Positions 23,486-28,626 of a stretch of DNA of 64,000 nt are shown in pieces. The notes beneath the pieces were generated by a model, which was given only the letters and a program-made list of their open reading frames with translations, made no database searches and was not told where the DNA came from. This DNA is from a virus. The stretch covers positions 1-64,000 of IMG/VR virus record IMGVR_UViG_3300005842_000001. One strand, given 5' to 3'. Made by a program: the position numbers and the translations under genes. Within the stretch, counting starts at the first letter, position 1, and each line of letters starts with the position of its first letter.

Positions 23486-26400
23486 ATGAATCAATTACCA
23501 ATGAATCCTGGCAACGACATGACCGACGTTCGCATCAAGTCGGGACTATTCGGCGGCATGGGCGGTATTGGCCGACAGATGGGCCGGGTGATGTACCGCA
23601 CCGGGCAGTTCCTCGGTGTCATGCCTTGGGAGACGCCGAGACGTTCACAGATCGGGGTCGATCCCATCGGTGAAGAGTTCATGCTCAATGAGGATCAGCA
23701 AGCTAAGGCCCGCTTGATGGGTCAGAAAATCTATCACGAGTTTGTTGCTGGTCGTTTCAGCTTCTTGTCCAACGACGATGGCAAGAGCAACGAAACGCCT
23801 CAGATGCGTGAAGAATACTGGAAGTTTGCAGTCACAGAGCCAGCGCTTGACGCTGCTCTGTGGACAAAGATCACCGCAGTCATCGCCAATGAATTGATCA
23901 TCAAGCCATCATCGAAGTCAGGCTTTGATCGATACATTGCCGATTGGGTGCATGACTGCATTATCAGATGCAAGGGCGGCTTGCGCAACATCGGTGAGCA
24001 GATTCTCTTTCATGGTCAAGTGTACGGCAATGTGTTATGTGAACCGAAATGGAAGCACGAGCATCGGCAAGTCCACTCAACGATGTTCCCTTATGGTTTC
24101 TGGACGCTGAAGGATTTCGTTGCAAAGCCACCGGGCGATTACAAATTGGAAATCGATGGCTTCAGAAACATCACCGGCGTCTGGTCGGCAAAAACTGCTG
24201 AATGGTTCGATCCTACTTACTTCGTTTATTGGGCTCACAAGCCGATCTATGGCAACATGGGCGGCACGTCGGGCGTTCGCAGTGTCAGACGAGCTTGCAC
24301 TCTTCTAAAGCTGGCCCACAACTATCGAGGCATCTACCTTGAGCAGTTCGGCTTGCCGATGATCAAGGCGACTTACCCCCAGAACGATGACGACTCTCAG
24401 CGCATCGCAAGAGCAGCGATTCAACACGCTCGATCACTCGGCTACATCTTGATACCAGAAGGTGTTGACGTTGAGGCATTGACACTGGCACAGCGCGGCG
24501 AGTCTGACTATCAGGATGCCATTGACGATTACCGAAAAGAAATCTTCCTTGGGCAGACAGGATCGTACCTGTATGCGATGGAAGGAAGCGTAGGTCATGC
24601 TGCTGGCAATTCAGAGACTCACCGCAGTACGCTTGATCTGTGGGTTGGGTATCTCAGCAAGATTCTGGAAGAGATTCTCAATGATCAGATCATTCCCTGG
24701 CTGATCACGCTAAATATATACAACGCTGATCCGCCACGAGCTATGATCGGCGGCGTCAACGATGAAGATTTGAAAGCATCACTTGAGGTTGACGATAAAT
24801 TGATTAGCTGGGGTGTTGAGCTTGATGAAGATGAACTACGAGATCGCTACCACCGATCAGCGCCAAAGAATGGCAAGGGCATTGGCGGCATGAATCGCTT
24901 GATGCTTGGGATGAACAATGGCATGGGAGCAAACAATGTACAAGGCAACCCGTTCGCTGGGCAAGCCGCTTCATTCCCGTTGCAGAATCAGGGGCAAGCC
25001 GCGAATAACAATACACCGCCGCAAAGAGATGATCAGACAGTTAAGTTCTCAGCAGATGACGAGGACTTTACACAGCAGCAAAACTATACTTGCGGAACGG
25101 CATCACTCCGATTCGCCATGAACCATTTTGGTGTCACTCCGCCTGAAGAAAGTGTGCTGTCCCTATTACTTGGTACGACACCAGCACAAGGCACGAATGC
25201 AGCCTCAATCGTGAGGCTGGCAAAGCAGAATGGGCTAGAGGCTGAAGGCCAGTCCAACATGACAATGCTCGAAATGTCAGAGCGTCTGAAGGATGGGGCA
25301 GTCGTACTGGCTCCCATTCAGAAGTTCGGGTCACCTGAAGAGAAAGCGAAGAATCAGACTGGTCACTGGATCGCTGTAACACGTCTTGATGGTTCAAGCG
25401 GTATGCTTGAATACTTCGATCCAGTTTTGGGCAGTGACAAGCCCTGCTGGGAGTCGTTGCAGACGTTCGCTGCCAACTGGCATGATCGAGATGGTGATGG
25501 GAAGATGTTGCCCAGGTATGCGATCACGATCAGCGAACCTAAAAAAAAAATGACATTCAGCACCGATGATCTGCAACTTGGATACATCTCGATTCCGCTG
25601 CCTGAGTTCGCTGAAGCAATCCAGAAGGTGCAAAGCGCGATCGATCCTGCTGACTTGATCAAGACTGAGAATGATCATCATATCACGTTGCTTTATGGTT
25701 GTGGCGCTGACAGCTTCGATGACAGCGTGAAGCTCTGCGCTAGCATTGCACCAATCAAGATGACTTTTGGCGGCACATTCACACTGTCGCCAAAAGATGC
25801 GGACCATGACGTTCTGGCGTTCAAAGTCTATGGCGATGCTCTTGAGAAAGCAAACTACAGTCTCGCCAGCGGGTTAGAAGTCAAGCAAGACTACGATACC
25901 TTCCAGCCCCACGTCAAAATAGGGCGGCTCAAACAAGGGGCAGGGTCAAAATATACTTCACCATCATTTGCGGGCTTCTCAGCATTGCTGGGCGATTCCA
26001 AGGTGGCTGAGTCTGCTCAGTTCAAGGTAAAGGGTGGTGAAGCGTTAAGCCTCCCTTTTGCCGCAGTGTCTGATTTACCAGTTCTGAAGTTCTCAGAAGA
26101 GCCAGCAAGCGATGAAGTTGCCAAGCCGGGTAAAGATGGCGACAAAGCAGATAAGCTGCTACAGAACGTCAAGGAAGACGGTACAGCGATCCTGGCTCGA
26201 CTTTGCAAAATGGCATATCGCCGCATGCTTGATAATGGCGTTGGTGGCAGTCAGCTATTCACGATGCAAGAGAGGAACGAACTCACCGAAGCATTCTTGG
26301 GCTGTGTGATCAATGCCAATCTGCTTGGTCGATCATCCACCATCAGCAAGTTCCTGAGAGACCAAGATGAATCGAGAGTTGATCGATTCGCTGATGAAAC

Positions 26401-27793
26401 GCCATTCGATGCGTTTTCATCTGCCCTTGATCCTTTGCGCCCTGAGCTAGCGATTGATTATTTCAAAAATCTGTTCCCGATGATCGGCGTTGATCCAGTG
26501 GCGTACATTCCGCAGATGAGGCGATATGCCTTCACGTTGGCGGTTGCAACCGAGACAACTCTTCTTGGTAAGGTTCACGATCTACTGACTGATGCACTAC
26601 ACGAAGGAACGCTTGACACTCAATTCAAGATCGATGATCTGCTAAAGAAGACTGGCGTGGCTCCTGAAAACCCGCAGTACAGTGAAATGGTTTTCAGGAC
26701 GAACATGATGGACGCCTACACGACTGGCACGACAGATCAGGCAAAAGACCCGACCATTGCCGAAGCGTACCCGGTGTGGCGATACGATGGCATCGACGAC
26801 GAACGCGCTGGGAAAGATCATCGCCCCAAGTTCGGGAAGTATTATCCATCGTCAGCAGAGTTTGCTGATGTTCGTGGTGATCGTCCTTATAACTGTGTTC
26901 TCCCTGGGCAGATGACACAGGGAAGAATCAATGGGGCATTAAAAGCCCACTATTCTGGCGAAGCGGTCGAGATTTATAGTGACAGTGGTGATATTATTTC
27001 CCTGACCGTCAACCATCCCGTATTGACCGATAGAGGCTTTATTCGTGCTGGCGAAGTGAAGGAAGGAGATTATCTTGTCAGCTATTCCGGGGAACATCAA
27101 ATCCCTGTTCTTGGTGAAGACTATCAATACTTTCCAACCTTGATCGAAGATGTATTTGAGACGATTAGTGTAGTTAAAGGTAGGTCGGCTAGGGCTTCTG
27201 CCCCAGTTTCCCTTTTCAAGCTCTATGGCGATGAGTTGTTCCTTGAAAGCAAGATCGACGTTGTAGGCTCCTATCGGGAATTGCTGTTCAATGGTGTGCC
27301 CCATGATTCTGAGCGTGTTCGCAACTCTATCCTCTCTGGGGCTACGGTGAAGCTGCATGGCATACCACGAAGCAGCACGCTTCAATTTAACAGCCATGCT
27401 GTCAGTCATCCCTCTTCTAGCGGCGTGGGCCTTAGCGACTTGCTTGGCTCTGATGCGTTTGCTCATCAAACTCCATTTAGTCTTTTCTGCTTCGGATCGG
27501 CCTCGCACCTTTATTCCCAATTTGACGAATTGCTTTCTAAGACAACTTCTGTCGATGTTCAGTTTGTCGGCAAGAGCCTTCATGGAGGCACCGGCAAGGT
27601 AGCGTTTAGCAAGGCGAGAAAGATTAGGAATTTCCATTACGATGGTCCTGTGTTTGATTGCTCAACTGATGTTGGATATTTTATAGTAAATAACATCTTC
27701 ATTTCAAATTGCCGCTGCTGTCCTACGATGATCTACAAGACAACATGGCAACAGTTGCAGGATCAAGGTAAGAGCGTAGAGACAAGCTGGTAG
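23486..27793 (+). CDS. portal (DUF935/Mu gp29-like) - C39-like peptidase - 2H phosphoesterase - MuF (gp30-like) fusion, intein-containing
   Basis: Portal signature YLEQFGLP..IPEG.DVE..LGQT..SETH; Q.NYTCG..GHW..YFDP; HIT/HVK; MuF AFTLA, VFRTN, YDGIDD.R..H, PYN|CRC. Confidence 0.88.
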   Translation: MNQLPMNPGNDMTDVRIKSGLFGGMGGIGRQMGRVMYRTGQFLGVMPWETPRRSQIGVDPIGEEFMLNEDQQAKARLMGQKIYHEFVAGRFSFLSNDDGKSNETPQMREEYWKFAVTEPALDAALWTKITAVIANELIIKPSSKSGFDRYIADWVHDCIIRCKGGLRNIGEQILFHGQVYGNVLCEPKWKHEHRQVHSTMFPYGFWTLKDFVAKPPGDYKLEIDGFRNITGVWSAKTAEWFDPTYFVYWAHKPIYGNMGGTSGVRSVRRACTLLKLAHNYRGIYLEQFGLPMIKATYPQNDDDSQRIARAAIQHARSLGYILIPEGVDVEALTLAQRGESDYQDAIDDYRKEIFLGQTGSYLYAMEGSVGHAAGNSETHRSTLDLWVGYLSKILEEILNDQIIPWLITLNIYNADPPRAMIGGVNDEDLKASLEVDDKLISWGVELDEDELRDRYHRSAPKNGKGIGGMNRLMLGMNNGMGANNVQGNPFAGQAASFPLQNQGQAANNNTPPQRDDQTVKFSADDEDFTQQQNYTCGTASLRFAMNHFGVTPPEESVLSLLLGTTPAQGTNAASIVRLAKQNGLEAEGQSNMTMLEMSERLKDGAVVLAPIQKFGSPEEKAKNQTGHWIAVTRLDGSSGMLEYFDPVLGSDKPCWESLQTFAANWHDRDGDGKMLPRYAITISEPKKKMTFSTDDLQLGYISIPLPEFAEAIQKVQSAIDPADLIKTENDHHITLLYGCGADSFDDSVKLCASIAPIKMTFGGTFTLSPKDADHDVLAFKVYGDALEKANYSLASGLEVKQDYDTFQPHVKIGRLKQGAGSKYTSPSFAGFSALLGDSKVAESAQFKVKGGEALSLPFAAVSDLPVLKFSEEPASDEVAKPGKDGDKADKLLQNVKEDGTAILARLCKMAYRRMLDNGVGGSQLFTMQERNELTEAFLGCVINANLLGRSSTISKFLRDQDESRVDRFADETPFDAFSSALDPLRPELAIDYFKNLFPMIGVDPVAYIPQMRRYAFTLAVATETTLLGKVHDLLTDALHEGTLDTQFKIDDLLKKTGVAPENPQYSEMVFRTNMMDAYTTGTTDQAKDPTIAEAYPVWRYDGIDDERAGKDHRPKFGKYYPSSAEFADVRGDRPYNCVLPGQMTQGRINGALKAHYSGEAVEIYSDSGDIISLTVNHPVLTDRGFIRAGEVKEGDYLVSYSGEHQIPVLGEDYQYFPTLIEDVFETISVVKGRSARASAPVSLFKLYGDELFLESKIDVVGSYRELLFNGVPHDSERVRNSILSGATVKLHGIPRSSTLQFNSHAVSHPSSSGVGLSDLLGSDAFAHQTPFSLFCFGSASHLYSQFDELLSKTTSVDVQFVGKSLHGGTGKVAFSKARKIRNFHYDGPVFDCSTDVGYFIVNNIFISNCRCCPTMIYKTTWQQLQDQGKSVETSW
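26939..27637 (-). CDS. antisense-encoded HTH + DUF559/Vsr-like endonuclease nested inside the intein
   Basis: YLAGASMKALA..I.RS.LR....GI.VR (HTH); SPRE..V...EQQFPIG.YNVDLA...IAIELE.G.W...GWKVL (DUF559-like); AGGA 8 nt upstream. Confidence 0.75.
   Translation of the reverse strand: MEIPNLSRLAKRYLAGASMKALADKLNIDRSCLRKQFVKLGIKVRGRSEAEKTKWSLMSKRIRAKQVAKAHAARRGMTDSMAVKLKRAASWYAMQLHRSPREDRVANTLRIMGHTIEQQFPIGAYNVDLAFKEQLIAIELEKGNWGRSPSRPTFNYTNRLKYIFDQGWKVLIVFTKNRDLMFPGIADKIISFLHFASTNKASIGQYGMVDGQGNNITTVTINLDRFARIVGF
27638..27707 (-). promoter_or_regulatory. sigma70-like promoter and RBS for the antisense endonuclease
   Basis: Minus strand TTGAAA (27707-27702)-N18-TAAAAT (27683-27678); AGGA at 27649-27646. 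Confidence 0.55.
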
Positions 27794-27888
27794 CTGGTCA
27801 TTGCCCAGAGTGTTCCTACTATGAAGACAACGCAACATGGCCCGGAGTTGCTGAAACGTGTCGAGGTAAGTTGGTAGCTTGGAGGCAA

Positions 27889-28242
27889 ATGATGCAAGCC
27901 TTACCGCCCCCGGACAATGATACATTCACCACTCTCTTGAGGGCATTAACTGCTGGTGTGCTGGGCATGATAGGTGCGAGCTTCTCTTCCTTAGATCGAG
28001 CAGTGAAGGGGAAAGAAATGTTCTGGCACCTGGGCTTGTCACTGTTTCTCTCTGGACTTACTTTTTGCACGTTGGTATCTATCTGGCCAGGTATTTATTG
28101 GATCGTGTGGCTTCTTCCTTCGTTCGTGATCGGCTTCTGTGTCTACGGCATTGCAGTTGCATTGAAAAAAAACAGCAAGTCTGCCGAAGACTTCGACGTT
28201 ACTAAAGTCATCAAAAAGAAAACAGGCATAGAAGGAGATTAG
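27889..28242 (+). CDS. three-TM membrane protein, holin candidate
   Basis: Three hydrophobic helices, highly charged C-terminus; GGAGG RBS with tandem Met starts. Confidence 0.5.
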   Translation: MMQALPPPDNDTFTTLLRALTAGVLGMIGASFSSLDRAVKGKEMFWHLGLSLFLSGLTFCTLVSIWPGIYWIVWLLPSFVIGFCVYGIAVALKKNSKSAEDFDVTKVIKKKTGIEGD

Positions 28243-28245
28243 GTC

Positions 28246-28626
28246 ATGTTCGTGATTCTCTGGGTGCTTGACAACATTGGAACCGCGCTCACAGTTGCAG
28301 CGGCTTTAGTAATCTTTGCGGTCGTTTGCGTACCGATGAGTCACCGACCTATAATTGAAAGAGTGTTCGGATTGTTCATCGGAATTTCGACGATGGGATC
28401 AGCACTTGATCGTTTTGCGCAGGTCATGGCTCAATATGACGTAGATGGTAGCGTTCGTTGCGTGGCTATGCTCATCTTCGATATTTCAAAAATGGGCATC
28501 GTGATTACAGGCGGCATGTTGCTCTATCGGTATATCGTGATGAAGAGAATGAACTGCGCTAGTGCTGATCGTTATGTGAAAAAATTGTCTGATCAAAAGA
28601 CTCCATTTTTTGCGGTGTCTCATTAA
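28246..28626 (+). CDS. membrane protein
   Basis: Three hydrophobic segments; AAGGAG RBS. Confidence 0.6.
   Translation: MFVILWVLDNIGTALTVAAALVIFAVVCVPMSHRPIIERVFGLFIGISTMGSALDRFAQVMAQYDVDGSVRCVAMLIFDISKMGIVITGGMLLYRYIVMKRMNCASADRYVKKLSDQKTPFFAVSH

What the first reader, a model, noticed from the sequence alone, without database searches (positions are those of the whole stretch)
26894..27709. Intein whose candidate homing endonuclease is encoded on the opposite strand, with its own promoter and RBS
Seen in sequence: a 272-aa intein (C1...TVNH...SN|C) splits the MuF PYN|CRC motif. Its middle has no LAGLIDADG/HNH motif and reads like antisense text (S/L/F-rich). Fully nested on the minus strand, in codon-aligned register, is a 232-aa ORF (27637-26939) with an N-terminal HTH, a basic helical linker and a DUF559/Vsr-like nuclease motif (SPRE...QFPIG.YNVDLA...IAIELE...GWKV). 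Its ATG is the complement of an intein His codon. The DNA for intein blocks F/G doubles as a sigma70-like promoter (TTGAAA-N18-TAAAAT) and an AGGA RBS 8 nt upstream. Established: intein endonucleases are normally in-frame inserts, and Vsr-like/EDxHD nucleases act as phage homing endonucleases. Inference: a dual-coding selfish element that keeps both strands open over about 700 bp and uncouples endonuclease expression from the late structural protein.
Basis: partly seen in the sequence, partly recalled or inferred. Interest (0 to 1): 0.92.

Follow-up and report, generated by a model that had tools for sequence, protein, structure and literature searches.

The report
MuF intein with antisense homing endonuclease
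A self-splicing protein insert (intein) in this phage's head-assembly gene carries its DNA-cutting mobility enzyme as a separate gene on the opposite strand, codon against codon; it is real and under selection, but a 2025 preprint already described the layout.

Summary
Window 26894-27709 (+) is a 272-aa class-1 intein that splits the MuF motif PYN|CRC. Window 27637-26939 (-) is a 232-aa ORF in the codon-aligned antisense register.

The antisense product is an HTH plus helical linker plus Vsr-like nuclease:
- A profile of 28 homologues hits homing endonuclease I-Bth0305I (3r3p, E 1.3e-6).
- The AlphaFold2 model has pLDDT 84.5, and its best Foldseek match is 3r3p.

In the sense frame only the Hint ends fold; residues 127-233 have pLDDT below 50.

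The same layout was found in every related locus I examined: 13 of 13 GenBank phage loci and 55 of 55 IMG/VR loci. Both frames avoid exactly the codons that would put a stop on the other strand. Conservation and silent changes switch from the sense frame (intein ends) to the antisense frame (middle).

In relatives, the nuclease's start codon, Shine-Dalgarno sequence and a sigma-70-like promoter are the complements of intein blocks F and G. The window has a shifted variant of this.

The layout is not new. Gosselin, Arsenault and Gogarten (bioRxiv 2025) reported anti-sense VSR-like endonucleases in full inteins of actinophage minor capsid proteins. This scan has also met it on other DNA (205 findings). 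Expression, cleavage and splicing remain untested.

The parts
26885..26893 (+). Last three N-extein codons, CCT TAT AAC (P-Y-N), of the MuF NCRC motif
   Evidence: An intein-less relative (L074) reads ...RGPRVFNCRCTF... without interruption.
26894..27709 (+). Class-1 intein, 272 aa (Cys1 ... T38-V-N-H41 ... S271-N272)
   Evidence: Pfam Intein_splicing E 5.6e-7, below the curated cut-off. Same insertion site, Cys1, terminal Asn and +1 Cys in 14 of 14 aligned MuF genes.
26894..27091 (+). N-terminal Hint subdomain (intein residues 1-66), including block B
   Evidence: AlphaFold2 pLDDT 86-97 for residues 1-60. Foldseek hits are inteins and Hint domains. The sense frame is the better conserved one here.
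27131..27271 (+). Intein residues 80-126. The sense frame is moderately structured (one helix, two strands) and overlaps the nuclease catalytic core on the other strand.
   Evidence: pLDDT 52-85. Sense motifs such as FHGD (LYGD in the window) are as well conserved as the antisense VAVE.
27272..27592 (+). Intein residues 127-233: sense-frame filler with no predicted fold
   Evidence: pLDDT below 50 over residues 127-233. Sense identity is 0.13-0.20 against 0.21-0.41 for the antisense frame in the same columns.
27599..27709 (+). C-terminal Hint part (residues 236-272, blocks F and G; block F reads GPVFDCS in the window)
   Evidence: pLDDT 85-98. All changes among the three close Gordonia copies here fall at sense third positions.
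27710..27718 (+). First C-extein codons, TGC CGC TGC (C-R-C), with the +1 Cys
26939..27637 (-). Antisense homing-endonuclease-like ORF, 232 aa plus a TAA stop (26941-26939)
   Evidence: tblastn found it in 51 phage records, 48 of them with at least 80% coverage. Profile against PDB: 3r3p E 1.3e-6. AlphaFold2 pLDDT 84.5.
27521..27622 (-). Helix-turn-helix module (ORF residues 6-39)
   Evidence: Helices 6-14, 19-26 and 30-39 with pLDDT above 90. Weak Pfam HTH_28 and HTH_23 hits. The profile hits resolvase and transposase HTH chains.
27356..27499 (-). Helical linker (ORF residues 47-94)
   Evidence: Helices 47-57, 60-74 and 81-94 with pLDDT 87-94. Conserved RSEA...AAH.A.RG motifs.
27038..27340 (-). 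Vsr-like nuclease core (ORF residues 100-200). Invariant E102 (27334-27332), D128 (27256-27254) and E139 (27223-27221).
   Evidence: Pfam MTES_1575 E 7.6e-6 and DUF559 E 0.0085. Invariant columns in 28 sequences. Foldseek: 3r3p probability 1.00, then 1cw0, 1vsr and 3hrl.
26942..27037 (-). C-terminal tail of the nuclease ORF (residues 201-232), antisense to intein block B
   Evidence: Low pLDDT of 50-65. The sense frame is better conserved here. The tail is nevertheless kept stop-free in 34 of 34 non-redundant loci.
27646..27649 (-). Shine-Dalgarno-like AGGA, 8 nt upstream of the ATG; partly the complement of the Pro252 codon
27678..27683 (-). -10-like TAAAAT, the complement of the Y262-F263-I264 codons
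   Evidence: Relatives carry TATAAT at the same position.
27702..27707 (-). -35-like TTGAAA, the complement of the last intein codons I270-S271-N272
   Evidence: Relatives carry TTGACA at the same position.

Best explanation
[quoted passage not shown] Its homing endonuclease is not an in-frame domain. It is a separate gene on the opposite strand, in the codon-aligned register.

Shown here:
- The antisense product is an HTH DNA-binding module, a helical linker and a Vsr-like nuclease related to the homing endonuclease I-Bth0305I.
- Across the family, both frames are kept free of stops.
- The antisense frame is under purifying selection in the middle of the intein, and the sense frame at the Hint ends.
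- In the sense frame, residues 127-233 are a foldless tether between the two Hint halves.

Inferred:
- The nuclease is transcribed from a host-type (sigma-70-like) promoter that is the complement of intein block G. In most relatives it is translated from a Shine-Dalgarno sequence and ATG that are the complement of block F (HVY[N/D]L[E/Q]). The window's start has moved four codons, to the complement of His248, with AGGA as its ribosome-binding site.
- The nuclease cuts the intein-less NCRC allele of a co-infecting or resident relative. Repair then copies the intein in.
- After translation of MuF, the Hint domain splices the insert out, so the host gene stays functional.
For: Nuclease identity
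- Pfam MTES_1575 E 7.6e-6 and DUF559 E 0.0085.
- A profile of 28 antisense ORFs against PDB sequences: 3r3p_A (I-Bth0305I) E 1.3e-6 and 3hrl E 1.4e-4, plus HTH chains.
- AlphaFold2 pLDDT 84.5, pTM 0.68.
- Foldseek rank 1 is 3r3p (probability 1.00), followed by Vsr 1cw0 and 1vsr.

Intein identity
- Cys1, TxxH, terminal Asn and +1 Cys are present.
- The Hint ends fold confidently, and the Foldseek hits are inteins.
- An intein-less relative reads NCRC without interruption.

Conserved layout
- The opposite-strand nesting is seen in 13 of 13 GenBank loci, 55 of 55 IMG/VR loci and 2 of 2 plasmid hits. None of the 55 IMG/VR ORFs has an internal stop, and the register is 0 in all 68 phage and IMG/VR loci.

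Selection
- There are no antisense-stop codons over 240-323 intein codons, against 6-20 expected in low-GC loci.
- Conditioned on Leu and Ser content, 0 were observed in 34 of 34 loci for both directions (summed log10 P of -113 and -29.6).
- Identity in the middle is 0.21-0.45 for the antisense frame against 0.13-0.28 for the sense frame. At the ends it reverses, to 0.34-0.53 for sense against 0.18-0.34 for antisense.
- Among the three close Gordonia copies, the HTH/linker part has 23-35 antisense-silent changes against 9-14 sense-silent ones. At the Hint ends the changes fall almost entirely at sense third positions.

Start signals
- The His codon under the start is CAT in 28 of 30 cases, against 14 of 64 elsewhere (Fisher 2e-11).
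- The Leu codon under the Shine-Dalgarno sequence is CTC in 26 of 30, against 45 of 192 elsewhere (3e-11).
- Promoter-like sites with at least 9 of 12 matches occur in 20 of 36 upstream windows, against 4.8% of 2881 control windows. Three are a perfect TTGACA-N18-TATAAT at the same position as the window's site.
Against: - There is no expression or activity evidence. RNA-library contigs of a Pseudomonas relative cover the whole head module and carry no strand information, and the one raw-read run laid no reads.
- The window's copy departs from the family. Block F lacks the His and Leu that carry the family's ATG and Shine-Dalgarno sequence, an antisense TGA sits there, and the start is displaced.
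- The position of the Vsr/I-Bth0305I general-base His (H213) is Gly146 in the window and mostly Arg in relatives. The catalytic mechanism, or activity itself, may therefore differ.
- The window's only near relative is 100% identical over the two stretches matched, so selection in this particular lineage cannot be measured.
- All Pfam scores are below the curated cut-offs.
- The window's promoter match alone is within chance.
- The summed probabilities treat loci as independent, which they are only approximately.
Confidence: 0.85

Rival explanations
1. The window's antisense gene belongs to a real nuclease family, but this copy is decaying or inactive. On this reading the intein is fixed and inherited vertically, and no longer homes.
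For: - The family's block-F start and Shine-Dalgarno sequence are lost here: Pro252 and Cys256 replace His and Leu, and an antisense TGA sits at codon 257.
- Gly146 occupies the position of the catalytic His.
- The tail has low model confidence.
- The preprint notes that some VSR-like groups look vertically inherited.
Against: - The ORF is intact over 232 codons, where about 8.5 stops would be expected.
- All seven columns that are invariant in 28 sequences are kept: M1, R30, A70, E102, Q119, D128 and E139.
- A replacement ATG with AGGA 8 nt upstream, and a 10-of-12 promoter at the family's position, are present.
- Most family members also lack the His.
Confidence: 0.2
2. The antisense ORF is a mirror artefact. 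Conservation of the sense protein alone makes the complementary frame look conserved and open, and no protein is made from it.
For: Codon-aligned antisense frames do inherit some similarity from the sense frame. The sense translation of the intein matches a PHROG head-protein family over residues 13-228 (E 3.3e-19). High-GC relatives have antisense frames open for over 1000 codons by composition alone.
Against: - The antisense frame matches independent nuclease and HTH families and a solved homing endonuclease.
- It folds confidently where the sense frame does not.
- It is the better conserved frame in the middle, and most changes there are silent in it.
- Stops are avoided in low-GC loci too.
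- Synonymous sense codons are fixed so as to spell ATG and GAG(G) on the other strand.
Confidence: 0.03
3. The antisense protein is made but is not a homing enzyme. It could be, for example, an HTH regulator or a nuclease used for superinfection exclusion or defence, merely housed in the intein.
For: One or two HTH modules and a host-type promoter would suit expression from a prophage, and many carriers are temperate phages or prophage-like records. The general-base His is not conserved. No target-site data exist.
Against: - Its nearest solved relative is a proven homing endonuclease with the same architecture of an N-terminal HTH-like module plus a C-terminal Vsr-like domain.
- In every case examined it sits inside an intein at one conserved site.
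- The preprint reports distributions that suggest horizontal transfer for two VSR-like groups.
Confidence: 0.1

Closest known systems
Full inteins with an anti-sense VSR-like homing endonuclease in actinobacteriophage genes, including minor capsid proteins (Gosselin, Arsenault and Gogarten, bioRxiv 10.1101/2025.01.02.630785). I read the abstract, sections 8, 15 and 28 and term searches; the supplements were not available.
   Same: - A contiguous intein in a minor capsid (MuF) protein.
[quoted passage not shown]
- The sense middle has no recognisable fold.
- The nuclease is Vsr-like and matches 3R3P.
- My tblastn also hits MuF genes of Gordonia, Rhodococcus REQ3 and a Mycobacterium phage.
   Different: - This copy is in an uncultured 72.8-kb phage, inside a portal-peptidase-MuF fusion.
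- The family reaches phages of Cronobacter, Pseudomonas, Vibrio, Haemophilus/Aggregatibacter, Klebsiella, Pantoea, Idiomarinaceae, Edwardsiella and Acinetobacter, and phage-like plasmids of Chloroflexota and Streptomyces.
- The preprint's main text has no occurrence of 'start codon', 'ribosom' or 'promoter'.
[quoted passage not shown] Here the ORF starts in block F and runs through block B.
Anti-sense LAGLIDADG endonucleases in inteins (Gorbalenya 1998; Gogarten et al. 2002). These are known to me only as cited by the preprint; I did not read them.
   Same: An intein whose endonuclease is read from the complementary strand.
   Different: The nuclease family differs (LAGLIDADG against Vsr-like), and so do the host genes (dnaX, a SpoVR-like protein, and actinophage minor capsid proteins).
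'Fractured genes': split inteins with a free-standing Vsr-like or GIY-YIG endonuclease gene between the halves (Dassa et al. 2009, PMC2677866; I read passages only)
   Same: A phage-associated Vsr-like endonuclease gene with its own expression signals sits at the endonuclease-insertion point of an intein. Short coding overlaps with the intein parts are reported.
   Different: There the intein and the host gene are split into two genes. My term search of that paper found no 'antisense' or 'reverse', and its three uses of 'opposite' concern electric charges. Here the gene is antisense and the intein stays in one piece, because the complementary frame is kept open.
I-Bth0305I, prototype of the EDxHD homing endonuclease family (Taylor et al. 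2011, PMC3239194; I read passages only; PDB 3r3p)
   Same: An N-terminal HTH/NUMOD-like DNA-binding region plus a C-terminal Vsr-like catalytic domain. The acidic residues align (E102, D128, E139).
   Different: I-Bth0305I is encoded in a group I intron of recA, on the sense strand. Its general-base His213 has no counterpart in the window (Gly146) or in most relatives (Arg).
ShiLan insertion with a hidden out-of-frame HNH endonuclease in phage DNA methylases (PMC11855218; seen only as a search listing and the start of the abstract)
   Same: An in-frame insertion in a phage gene that hides an endonuclease gene in another frame.
   Different: That insertion could not be identified as an intein or an intron (start of the abstract). 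The nuclease there is HNH, and the other frame is not described as codon-aligned antisense.

Membership tests
Class-1 intein (Hint domain) | Cys or Ser nucleophile as the first residue | tested here: met
   Cys1 (TGT, 26894-26896). Cys in 14 of 14 aligned relatives.
Class-1 intein (Hint domain) | Block B TxxH motif | tested here: met
   T38-V-N-H41. TPNHP in relatives; T38 and H41 are invariant in 25 sequences.
Class-1 intein (Hint domain) | C-terminal Asn followed by Cys, Ser or Thr at +1 | tested here: met
   N272|C, in 14 of 14. The penultimate residue is Ser, not the common His; that His is frequent but not universal in inteins (my own knowledge).
Class-1 intein (Hint domain) | Hint fold | tested here: met
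   AlphaFold2 residues 1-66 and 236-272 have pLDDT 85-98. The Foldseek top hits are inteins (Mtu RecA splicing domain probability 1.00, TM 0.56-0.59). E-values are only 1e-3 to 1e-2 because of the disordered middle.
Class-1 intein (Hint domain) | In-frame insertion at a conserved host-protein site, with intein-less alleles in relatives | tested here: met
   L074 MuF (41% identical N-extein) reads ...VFNCRCTF....
Class-1 intein (Hint domain) | Protein splicing | not testable with these tools
   Needs expression of the precursor.
EDxHD homing endonucleases (I-Bth0305I family) | Vsr-like nuclease fold and sequence-profile relationship to I-Bth0305I | tested here: met
   hmmsearch against 3r3p_A, E 1.3e-6. 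Foldseek against 3r3p, probability 1.00, TM 0.62.
EDxHD homing endonucleases (I-Bth0305I family) | Metal-binding Asp (D196 of I-Bth0305I) and conserved acidic residues | tested here: met
   D128 of YNVD aligns with the D196A position of the crystal construct. E102 and E139 are invariant in 28 sequences.
EDxHD homing endonucleases (I-Bth0305I family) | General-base His (H213 of I-Bth0305I) | tested here: not met
   By my reading of the profile alignment against the A4 rows, the aligned position is Gly146 in the window (ELEKGNWG) and Arg in most relatives. His is kept only in a few (for example L066). I therefore call the protein Vsr-like and related to EDxHD, not a strict member.
EDxHD homing endonucleases (I-Bth0305I family) | N-terminal HTH/NUMOD DNA-binding modules | tested here: met
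   One HTH in the window and two in most relatives.
EDxHD homing endonucleases (I-Bth0305I family) | Site-specific cleavage next to the insertion site | not testable with these tools
   Needs a biochemical assay.
Anti-sense VSR-like HEN inteins (Gosselin et al. 2025 preprint) | Contiguous intein whose endonuclease ORF lies on the anti-sense strand | tested here: met
Anti-sense VSR-like HEN inteins (Gosselin et al. 2025 preprint) | Sense-frame middle without a recognisable structure; antisense product Vsr-like and matching 3R3P | tested here: met
   The preprint's statements were read.
Anti-sense VSR-like HEN inteins (Gosselin et al. 2025 preprint) | Homology to the actinophage examples listed by the authors | tested here: inconclusive
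   tblastn hits MuF genes of Gordonia phages (31% identity, E 1e-23) and Rhodococcus phage REQ3. The preprint's lists of VSR-like clusters are in supplements that I could not open.
Fractured genes (split intein plus free-standing HEG) | Host gene and intein split into two separately translated parts | tested here: not met
   A single open sense frame crosses the whole element in the window and in 68 of 68 related loci.

The most novel reading that the evidence does not exclude
The intein and its nuclease gene may be physically interlocked.

- The nuclease's promoter (-35 on the last three intein codons, -10 on block G), its Shine-Dalgarno sequence and its start codon (block F) are written in the complement of the splicing motifs.
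- Its catalytic core and C-terminus are antisense to folded parts of the N-terminal Hint subdomain.

If these signals work, roughly 75 codons encode two folded domains at once. Neither partner can be deleted or frameshifted without killing the other, or the essential head gene. An indel in the nuclease would also frameshift MuF. This would shield the endonuclease from the usual decay to a mini-intein. It would also give it host-type, possibly early or lysogenic, expression that runs convergent to late MuF transcription.

I found this signal overlap in no paper section that I read or searched. Earlier notes of this scan do describe it.
Probability: 0.45. Interest if true: 0.65.

Novelty: new member of a known kind. 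Interest (0 to 1): 0.5.

Why it matters
This is a clean natural case of long sense/antisense double coding (about 700 bp) in which both products have predicted folds and assignable roles. Genome annotation misses the gene. In the 13 GenBank phage regions I opened, none of the antisense ORFs is annotated.

Three consequences follow:
- The family is widespread and gives an untapped set of Vsr-like homing nucleases with modular HTH domains.
- It offers a testable model of how a free-standing endonuclease gene and an intein become one unit without splitting the host gene.
- The fixed synonymous codons in blocks F and G predict exactly which silent MuF mutations should abolish nuclease expression. 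That makes the mobility of the element experimentally separable from splicing.

Tried and rejected
- **Nucleotide search of phage records** (blastn, window 26000-28300) gave no match. All comparisons are therefore at the protein or codon level.
- **Word-indexed protein search with P0002 alone** gave nothing at E <= 0.001. With alignment A4 it gave 16 proteins, most of them on contigs of about 1-4 kb.
- **The search for related loci with P0002** found only the window's own phage.
- **The genome-contig scan** gave only 2 loci.
- **Search for free-standing relatives of the nuclease.**
  - Across the two tblastn listings (100 rows shown, with 11 and 5 further records unlisted), every substantial match (43% query coverage or more, 97 of the 100 rows) lay under a single annotated CDS named head, MuF, minor capsid, capsid maturation protease or hypothetical; one of these records has no annotation. 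The only other rows were three short HTH-only matches to HNH-endonuclease genes at E 0.4-8.
  - Both plasmid hits were nested too.
  - The profile search returned 1635 representatives at E <= 1e-30. I could not see their DNA context, so whether free-standing forms exist remains open.
- **RNA evidence.** Twelve RNA-library runs, kept as contigs, hold the Pseudomonas relative's stretch. When laid on 5.7 kb, the contigs of X4 and X11 span essentially the whole stretch, and X9 covers 23 of 30 bins. None has strand information, and the raw-read run X24 laid 0 reads. This is no test of antisense transcription.
- **Sigma-70 promoter in the window alone** is within chance. I rely only on its positional conservation in relatives.
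- **Split-intein (fractured gene) reading:** rejected, because the sense frame is open everywhere.
- **Class-3 intein reading:** not pursued, because Cys1 is present.
- **Paper searches.** Searches found the preprint only. Supplements of the preprint, which hold its cluster lists and structures, were not available and may already contain points that I present as additions.
- **Regex failures.**
  - In one search my boundary pattern failed for 7 of 55 loci (the residue before the intein is not N or Q, or the site is shifted). They are left out of the codon counts, but all 7 had both frames open.
  - In one search the block-F pattern missed 4 of 36 non-redundant inteins (L002, L008, L013, L014).

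Full report
**1. What is in the window**

The + strand carries one 1435-aa ORF (23486..27793). The - strand carries a 232-aa ORF (27637..26939, ATG start, TAA stop) nested within it.

Pfam places three domains on the long protein: a Mu-type portal (E 1e-38), a C39-like peptidase (E 3e-4) and Phage_Mu_F (E 2.3e-4, below the curated cut-off). The intein-splicing model matches residues 1147-1406.

The 272 residues encoded by 26894-27709 begin with Cys and contain T38-V-N-H41. They end in S271-N272 and are followed by C-R-C. The preceding codons are P-Y-N. [quoted passage not shown]

A relative with a 41% identical N-extein (L074) reads ...RGPRVFNCRCTF... with no insert.

The two ORFs are codon-aligned, so sense residue s faces antisense residue 249 - s. 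The minus-strand ATG is the complement of the CAT codon of His248.

**2. The antisense product is a nuclease with a DNA-binding head**

- Alone, it matches Pfam MTES_1575 (E 7.6e-6) and DUF559 (E 0.0085), both Vsr-like restriction-endonuclease-fold families. It also matches HTH models weakly. All these scores are below the curated cut-offs.
- A profile of 28 homologous antisense ORFs (A4) hits the PDB chain 3r3p_A, the catalytic domain of the homing endonuclease I-Bth0305I (E 1.3e-6). It also hits 3hrl (E 1.4e-4), and resolvase and transposase HTH chains with its N-terminal part.
- AlphaFold2 on A4 gives mean pLDDT 84.5 and pTM 0.68. Every 10-residue block up to 140 averages 87 or more. The model has three short helices (6-39), a helical linker (47-94) and an alpha/beta core (100-200). 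The tail (201-232) is poorly predicted.
- Foldseek ranks 3r3p first (probability 1.00, TM 0.62 on the target). The Vsr structures 1cw0 and 1vsr follow at ranks 3 and 8, and 3hrl is further down (rank 22, TM 0.70).
- E102, Q119, D128 and E139 are invariant in the 28 sequences.
- The crystal construct of I-Bth0305I carried D196A and H213A. By my reading of the alignment, D128 aligns with position 196. The position of H213 is Gly146 in the window and mostly Arg in relatives.
- I therefore call the protein Vsr-like and related to the EDxHD family, not a strict member.

**3. The sense product is an intein with a foldless middle**

AlphaFold2 on 25 sense inteins (A5) gives pLDDT 86-97 for residues 1-60 and 85-98 for 241-272. 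Residues 80-126 score 52-85, and residues 127-233 score below 50. The Foldseek matches are inteins and Hint domains: the Mtu RecA splicing domain (probability 1.00), VMA and RadA inteins, and hedgehog. No match reaches E <= 0.001.

The moderately confident stretch 80-126 faces the nuclease's catalytic strands. The confident N-terminal Hint part faces the nuclease's last helix and tail. The overlap is therefore not limited to a filler region.

**4. The layout recurs widely**

- tblastn of the antisense protein found 51 phage records at E <= 1e-3, 48 of them covering at least 80% of it, at 25-31.5% identity in the rows shown. There was no nucleotide-level match.
- The hosts named include Cronobacter, Gordonia, Pseudomonas, Vibrio, Haemophilus/Aggregatibacter, Klebsiella, Pantoea and Idiomarinaceae. 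At looser thresholds Rhodococcus, Mycobacterium, Edwardsiella, Acinetobacter and Escherichia appear too.
- In 13 of 13 regions opened, the match lies opposite a long CDS annotated as MuF, head morphogenesis, minor capsid or hypothetical. The antisense ORF itself is not annotated in any of them.
- In all 13 the antisense frame is open and in register 0.
- Two scans of IMG/VR gave 55 further loci. In 55 of 55 the nuclease frame has no internal stop, and a 468-1080-aa frame on the other strand, in register 0, covers it.
- Two plasmid hits (Candidatus Promineifilum breve and Streptomyces platensis) are nested in the same way.
- In 14 of 14 aligned MuF genes the insert begins with Cys, ends with Asn, is followed by Cys and occupies the same site.
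- One locus (L065) has the insert two codons further along, at NCR|C.

**5. Both frames are under selection**

- *Stops in the antisense frame.* Sense codons TTA, CTA and TCA give antisense stops. In low- and mid-GC loci they make up 2.4-6.8% of extein codons, yet none occurs across 240-323 intein codons, where 6-20 would be expected.
- *The same test conditioned on Leu and Ser content.* I used each locus's own extein codon usage on 34 non-redundant loci.
  - The nuclease ORF never uses the three codons that would stop the sense frame. 1-13 were expected per locus in 33 of the 34 loci (one high-GC locus has none in its extein), and the summed log10 P is -113.
  - The N-terminal Hint part never uses the three that would stop the nuclease's tail. 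0.2-4.4 were expected in those same 33 loci, and the summed log10 P is -29.6.
  - The loci are not fully independent.
- *Conservation.* On one codon alignment of 12 sequences, pairwise identity in the middle is 0.21-0.45 for the antisense frame and 0.13-0.28 for the sense frame. At the Hint ends it is 0.34-0.53 for sense and 0.18-0.34 for antisense. The alignment was built on the antisense proteins, which favours that frame.
- *Codon positions.* The three close Gordonia copies (86-89% nucleotide identity) need no such alignment choice.
  - In the HTH/linker part, changed codons are silent in the antisense frame 23-35 times and silent in the sense frame 9-14 times.
  - In block F/G and in the first 16 codons, 33 of the 35 differences fall at sense third positions.
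  - In the nuclease core the two frames are nearly balanced: 7-8 antisense-silent against 4-6 sense-silent.

**6. Expression signals are written in the splicing motifs**

- *Start codon and Shine-Dalgarno sequence.* In most relatives the nuclease starts at an ATG that is the complement of the His codon in block F (HVY[N/D]L[E/Q]). It is preceded at 7-9 nt by GAGG, GGAG or GAGA, whose GAG is the complement of the Leu codon (CTC) of that motif.
- *Fixed synonymous codons.* Among the 32 of 36 non-redundant inteins matched by my block-F pattern:
  - His is CAT in 28 of 30 (CAC, giving GTG, in 2), against 14 CAT of 64 His codons in the first 70 intein codons (Fisher 2e-11).
  - Leu is CTC in 26 of 30, against 45 of 192 elsewhere (3e-11).
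- *Promoter.*
  - A sigma-70-like site with at least 9 of 12 matches lies within 120 nt upstream in 20 of 36 loci, against 4.8% of 2881 control windows on the same strand.
  - Eight of the 36 score 11 or 12. Three of these are a perfect TTGACA-N18-TATAAT.
  - Four of the 36 had no site passing the filter.
  - In that clade the -35 is the complement of the last intein codons (V-S-N), and the -10 is the complement of D-Y-I/T in block G.
- *The window.*
  - It has the same promoter geometry. TTGAAA is the complement of I270-S271-N272, and TAAAAT is the complement of Y262-F263-I264.
  - Its block F reads GPVFDCS, so the family's ATG and Shine-Dalgarno sequence are gone and an antisense TGA sits at codon 257.
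  - The ORF starts four codons further on, at the complement of His248. AGGA lies 8 nt upstream and is partly the complement of the Pro252 codon.
- All of this is comparative inference; no transcript was seen.

**7. Attempts at direct evidence**

Twelve RNA-library runs hold a Pseudomonas relative's stretch, but only as contigs. When laid on 5.7 kb, the contigs of X4 and X11 span essentially the whole stretch and X9 covers 23 of 30 bins. They carry no strand information. The single raw-read run laid nothing.

I could therefore not tell whether the 1635 profile hits at E <= 1e-30 include free-standing or split forms.

**8. Comparison with what is known**

- *Closest report.* The bioRxiv preprint by Gosselin, Arsenault and Gogarten is the closest (abstract, sections 8, 15 and 28 and term searches read).
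  - It reports a foldless in-frame middle, and an HHpred match of the VSR-like protein to 3R3P.
  - It cites earlier reports of anti-sense LAGLIDADG inteins (Gorbalenya 1998; Gogarten et al. 2002), which I did not read.
- *Split-intein relatives.* Dassa et al. 2009 described Vsr-like endonuclease genes between the halves of split inteins. My term search found no mention of an antisense arrangement (passages only).
  - The breadth beyond actinophages.
  - The codon-level evidence for two-way stop avoidance and frame switching.
  - The location of promoter, Shine-Dalgarno sequence and start inside blocks G and F.
  - The overlap with folded Hint parts.
  - The preprint's main text has no hit for 'start codon', 'ribosom' or 'promoter'.
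- *Earlier notes of this scan.* They describe the same layout on other DNA (205 findings holding the search words, in at least 147 genomes). They also describe the promoter, ribosome-binding site and start in blocks F/G. I consulted them after reaching my reading, and they agree with it.

**9. Verdict**

The window's element is a new member of a recently described kind. Its own activity is unproven, and its start signals differ from the family norm. I give about 0.85 to a true antisense-encoded Vsr-like endonuclease in a functional intein at the family level. I give about 0.2 to this particular copy being inactive.

Noticed in passing
window 23486-27793 (+): One 1435-aa ORF fuses a Mu-type portal (Pfam E 1e-38), a C39-like peptidase (E 3e-4) and a MuF domain with the intein. 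In the 13 GenBank relatives, portal and MuF are separate genes.
   Followed up: partly
L065 2339-5578 (- strand ORF): The intein sits at NCR|C, two codons downstream of the usual N|CRC site in the same MuF motif, and still has a Cys at +1. It carries the same kind of antisense nuclease.
   Followed up: partly
A4 alignment columns 1-75; loci L004, L006, L037-L061 and others: The nuclease has two HTH modules in most relatives. The window has only one, as do the ES2-like and Pseudomonas-like clades and L062. A whole module has therefore been gained or lost in multiples of three bases, without breaking the intein frame.
   Followed up: no
window 26942-27037 (-) and the equivalent part of 34 loci: The nuclease ORF's tail is antisense to intein block B. 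It models poorly (pLDDT 50-65), and the sense frame is the better conserved one there. It is nevertheless kept stop-free in 34 of 34 loci, and the stop recurs at sense codon 16, 6, 5 or 2. Why the tail is retained is unexplained.
   Followed up: partly
protein catalogue hits P0003-P0152; P0153, P0156: Gene callers have already predicted many of these antisense ORFs: 1635 cluster representatives at E <= 1e-30. The few catalogue hits with contig data lie mostly on contigs of about 1-4 kb. One carries the JGI name 'very-short-patch-repair endonuclease' and one the NCBI name 'protein of unknown function'.
   Followed up: partly
window 26764..26749 (-): A weak terminator-like hairpin lies on the minus strand about 175 nt downstream of the nuclease stop. 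The count of such sites in the region is within chance.
   Followed up: no
L025 1-5699, runs X4, X9, X11: The head-gene module of the Pseudomonas prophage relative is assembled in RNA libraries from three studies (the full 5.7 kb in X4 and X11, 23 of 30 bins in X9). In X9 the word depth is very high, which suggests prophage induction or DNA carry-over in those samples.
   Followed up: no
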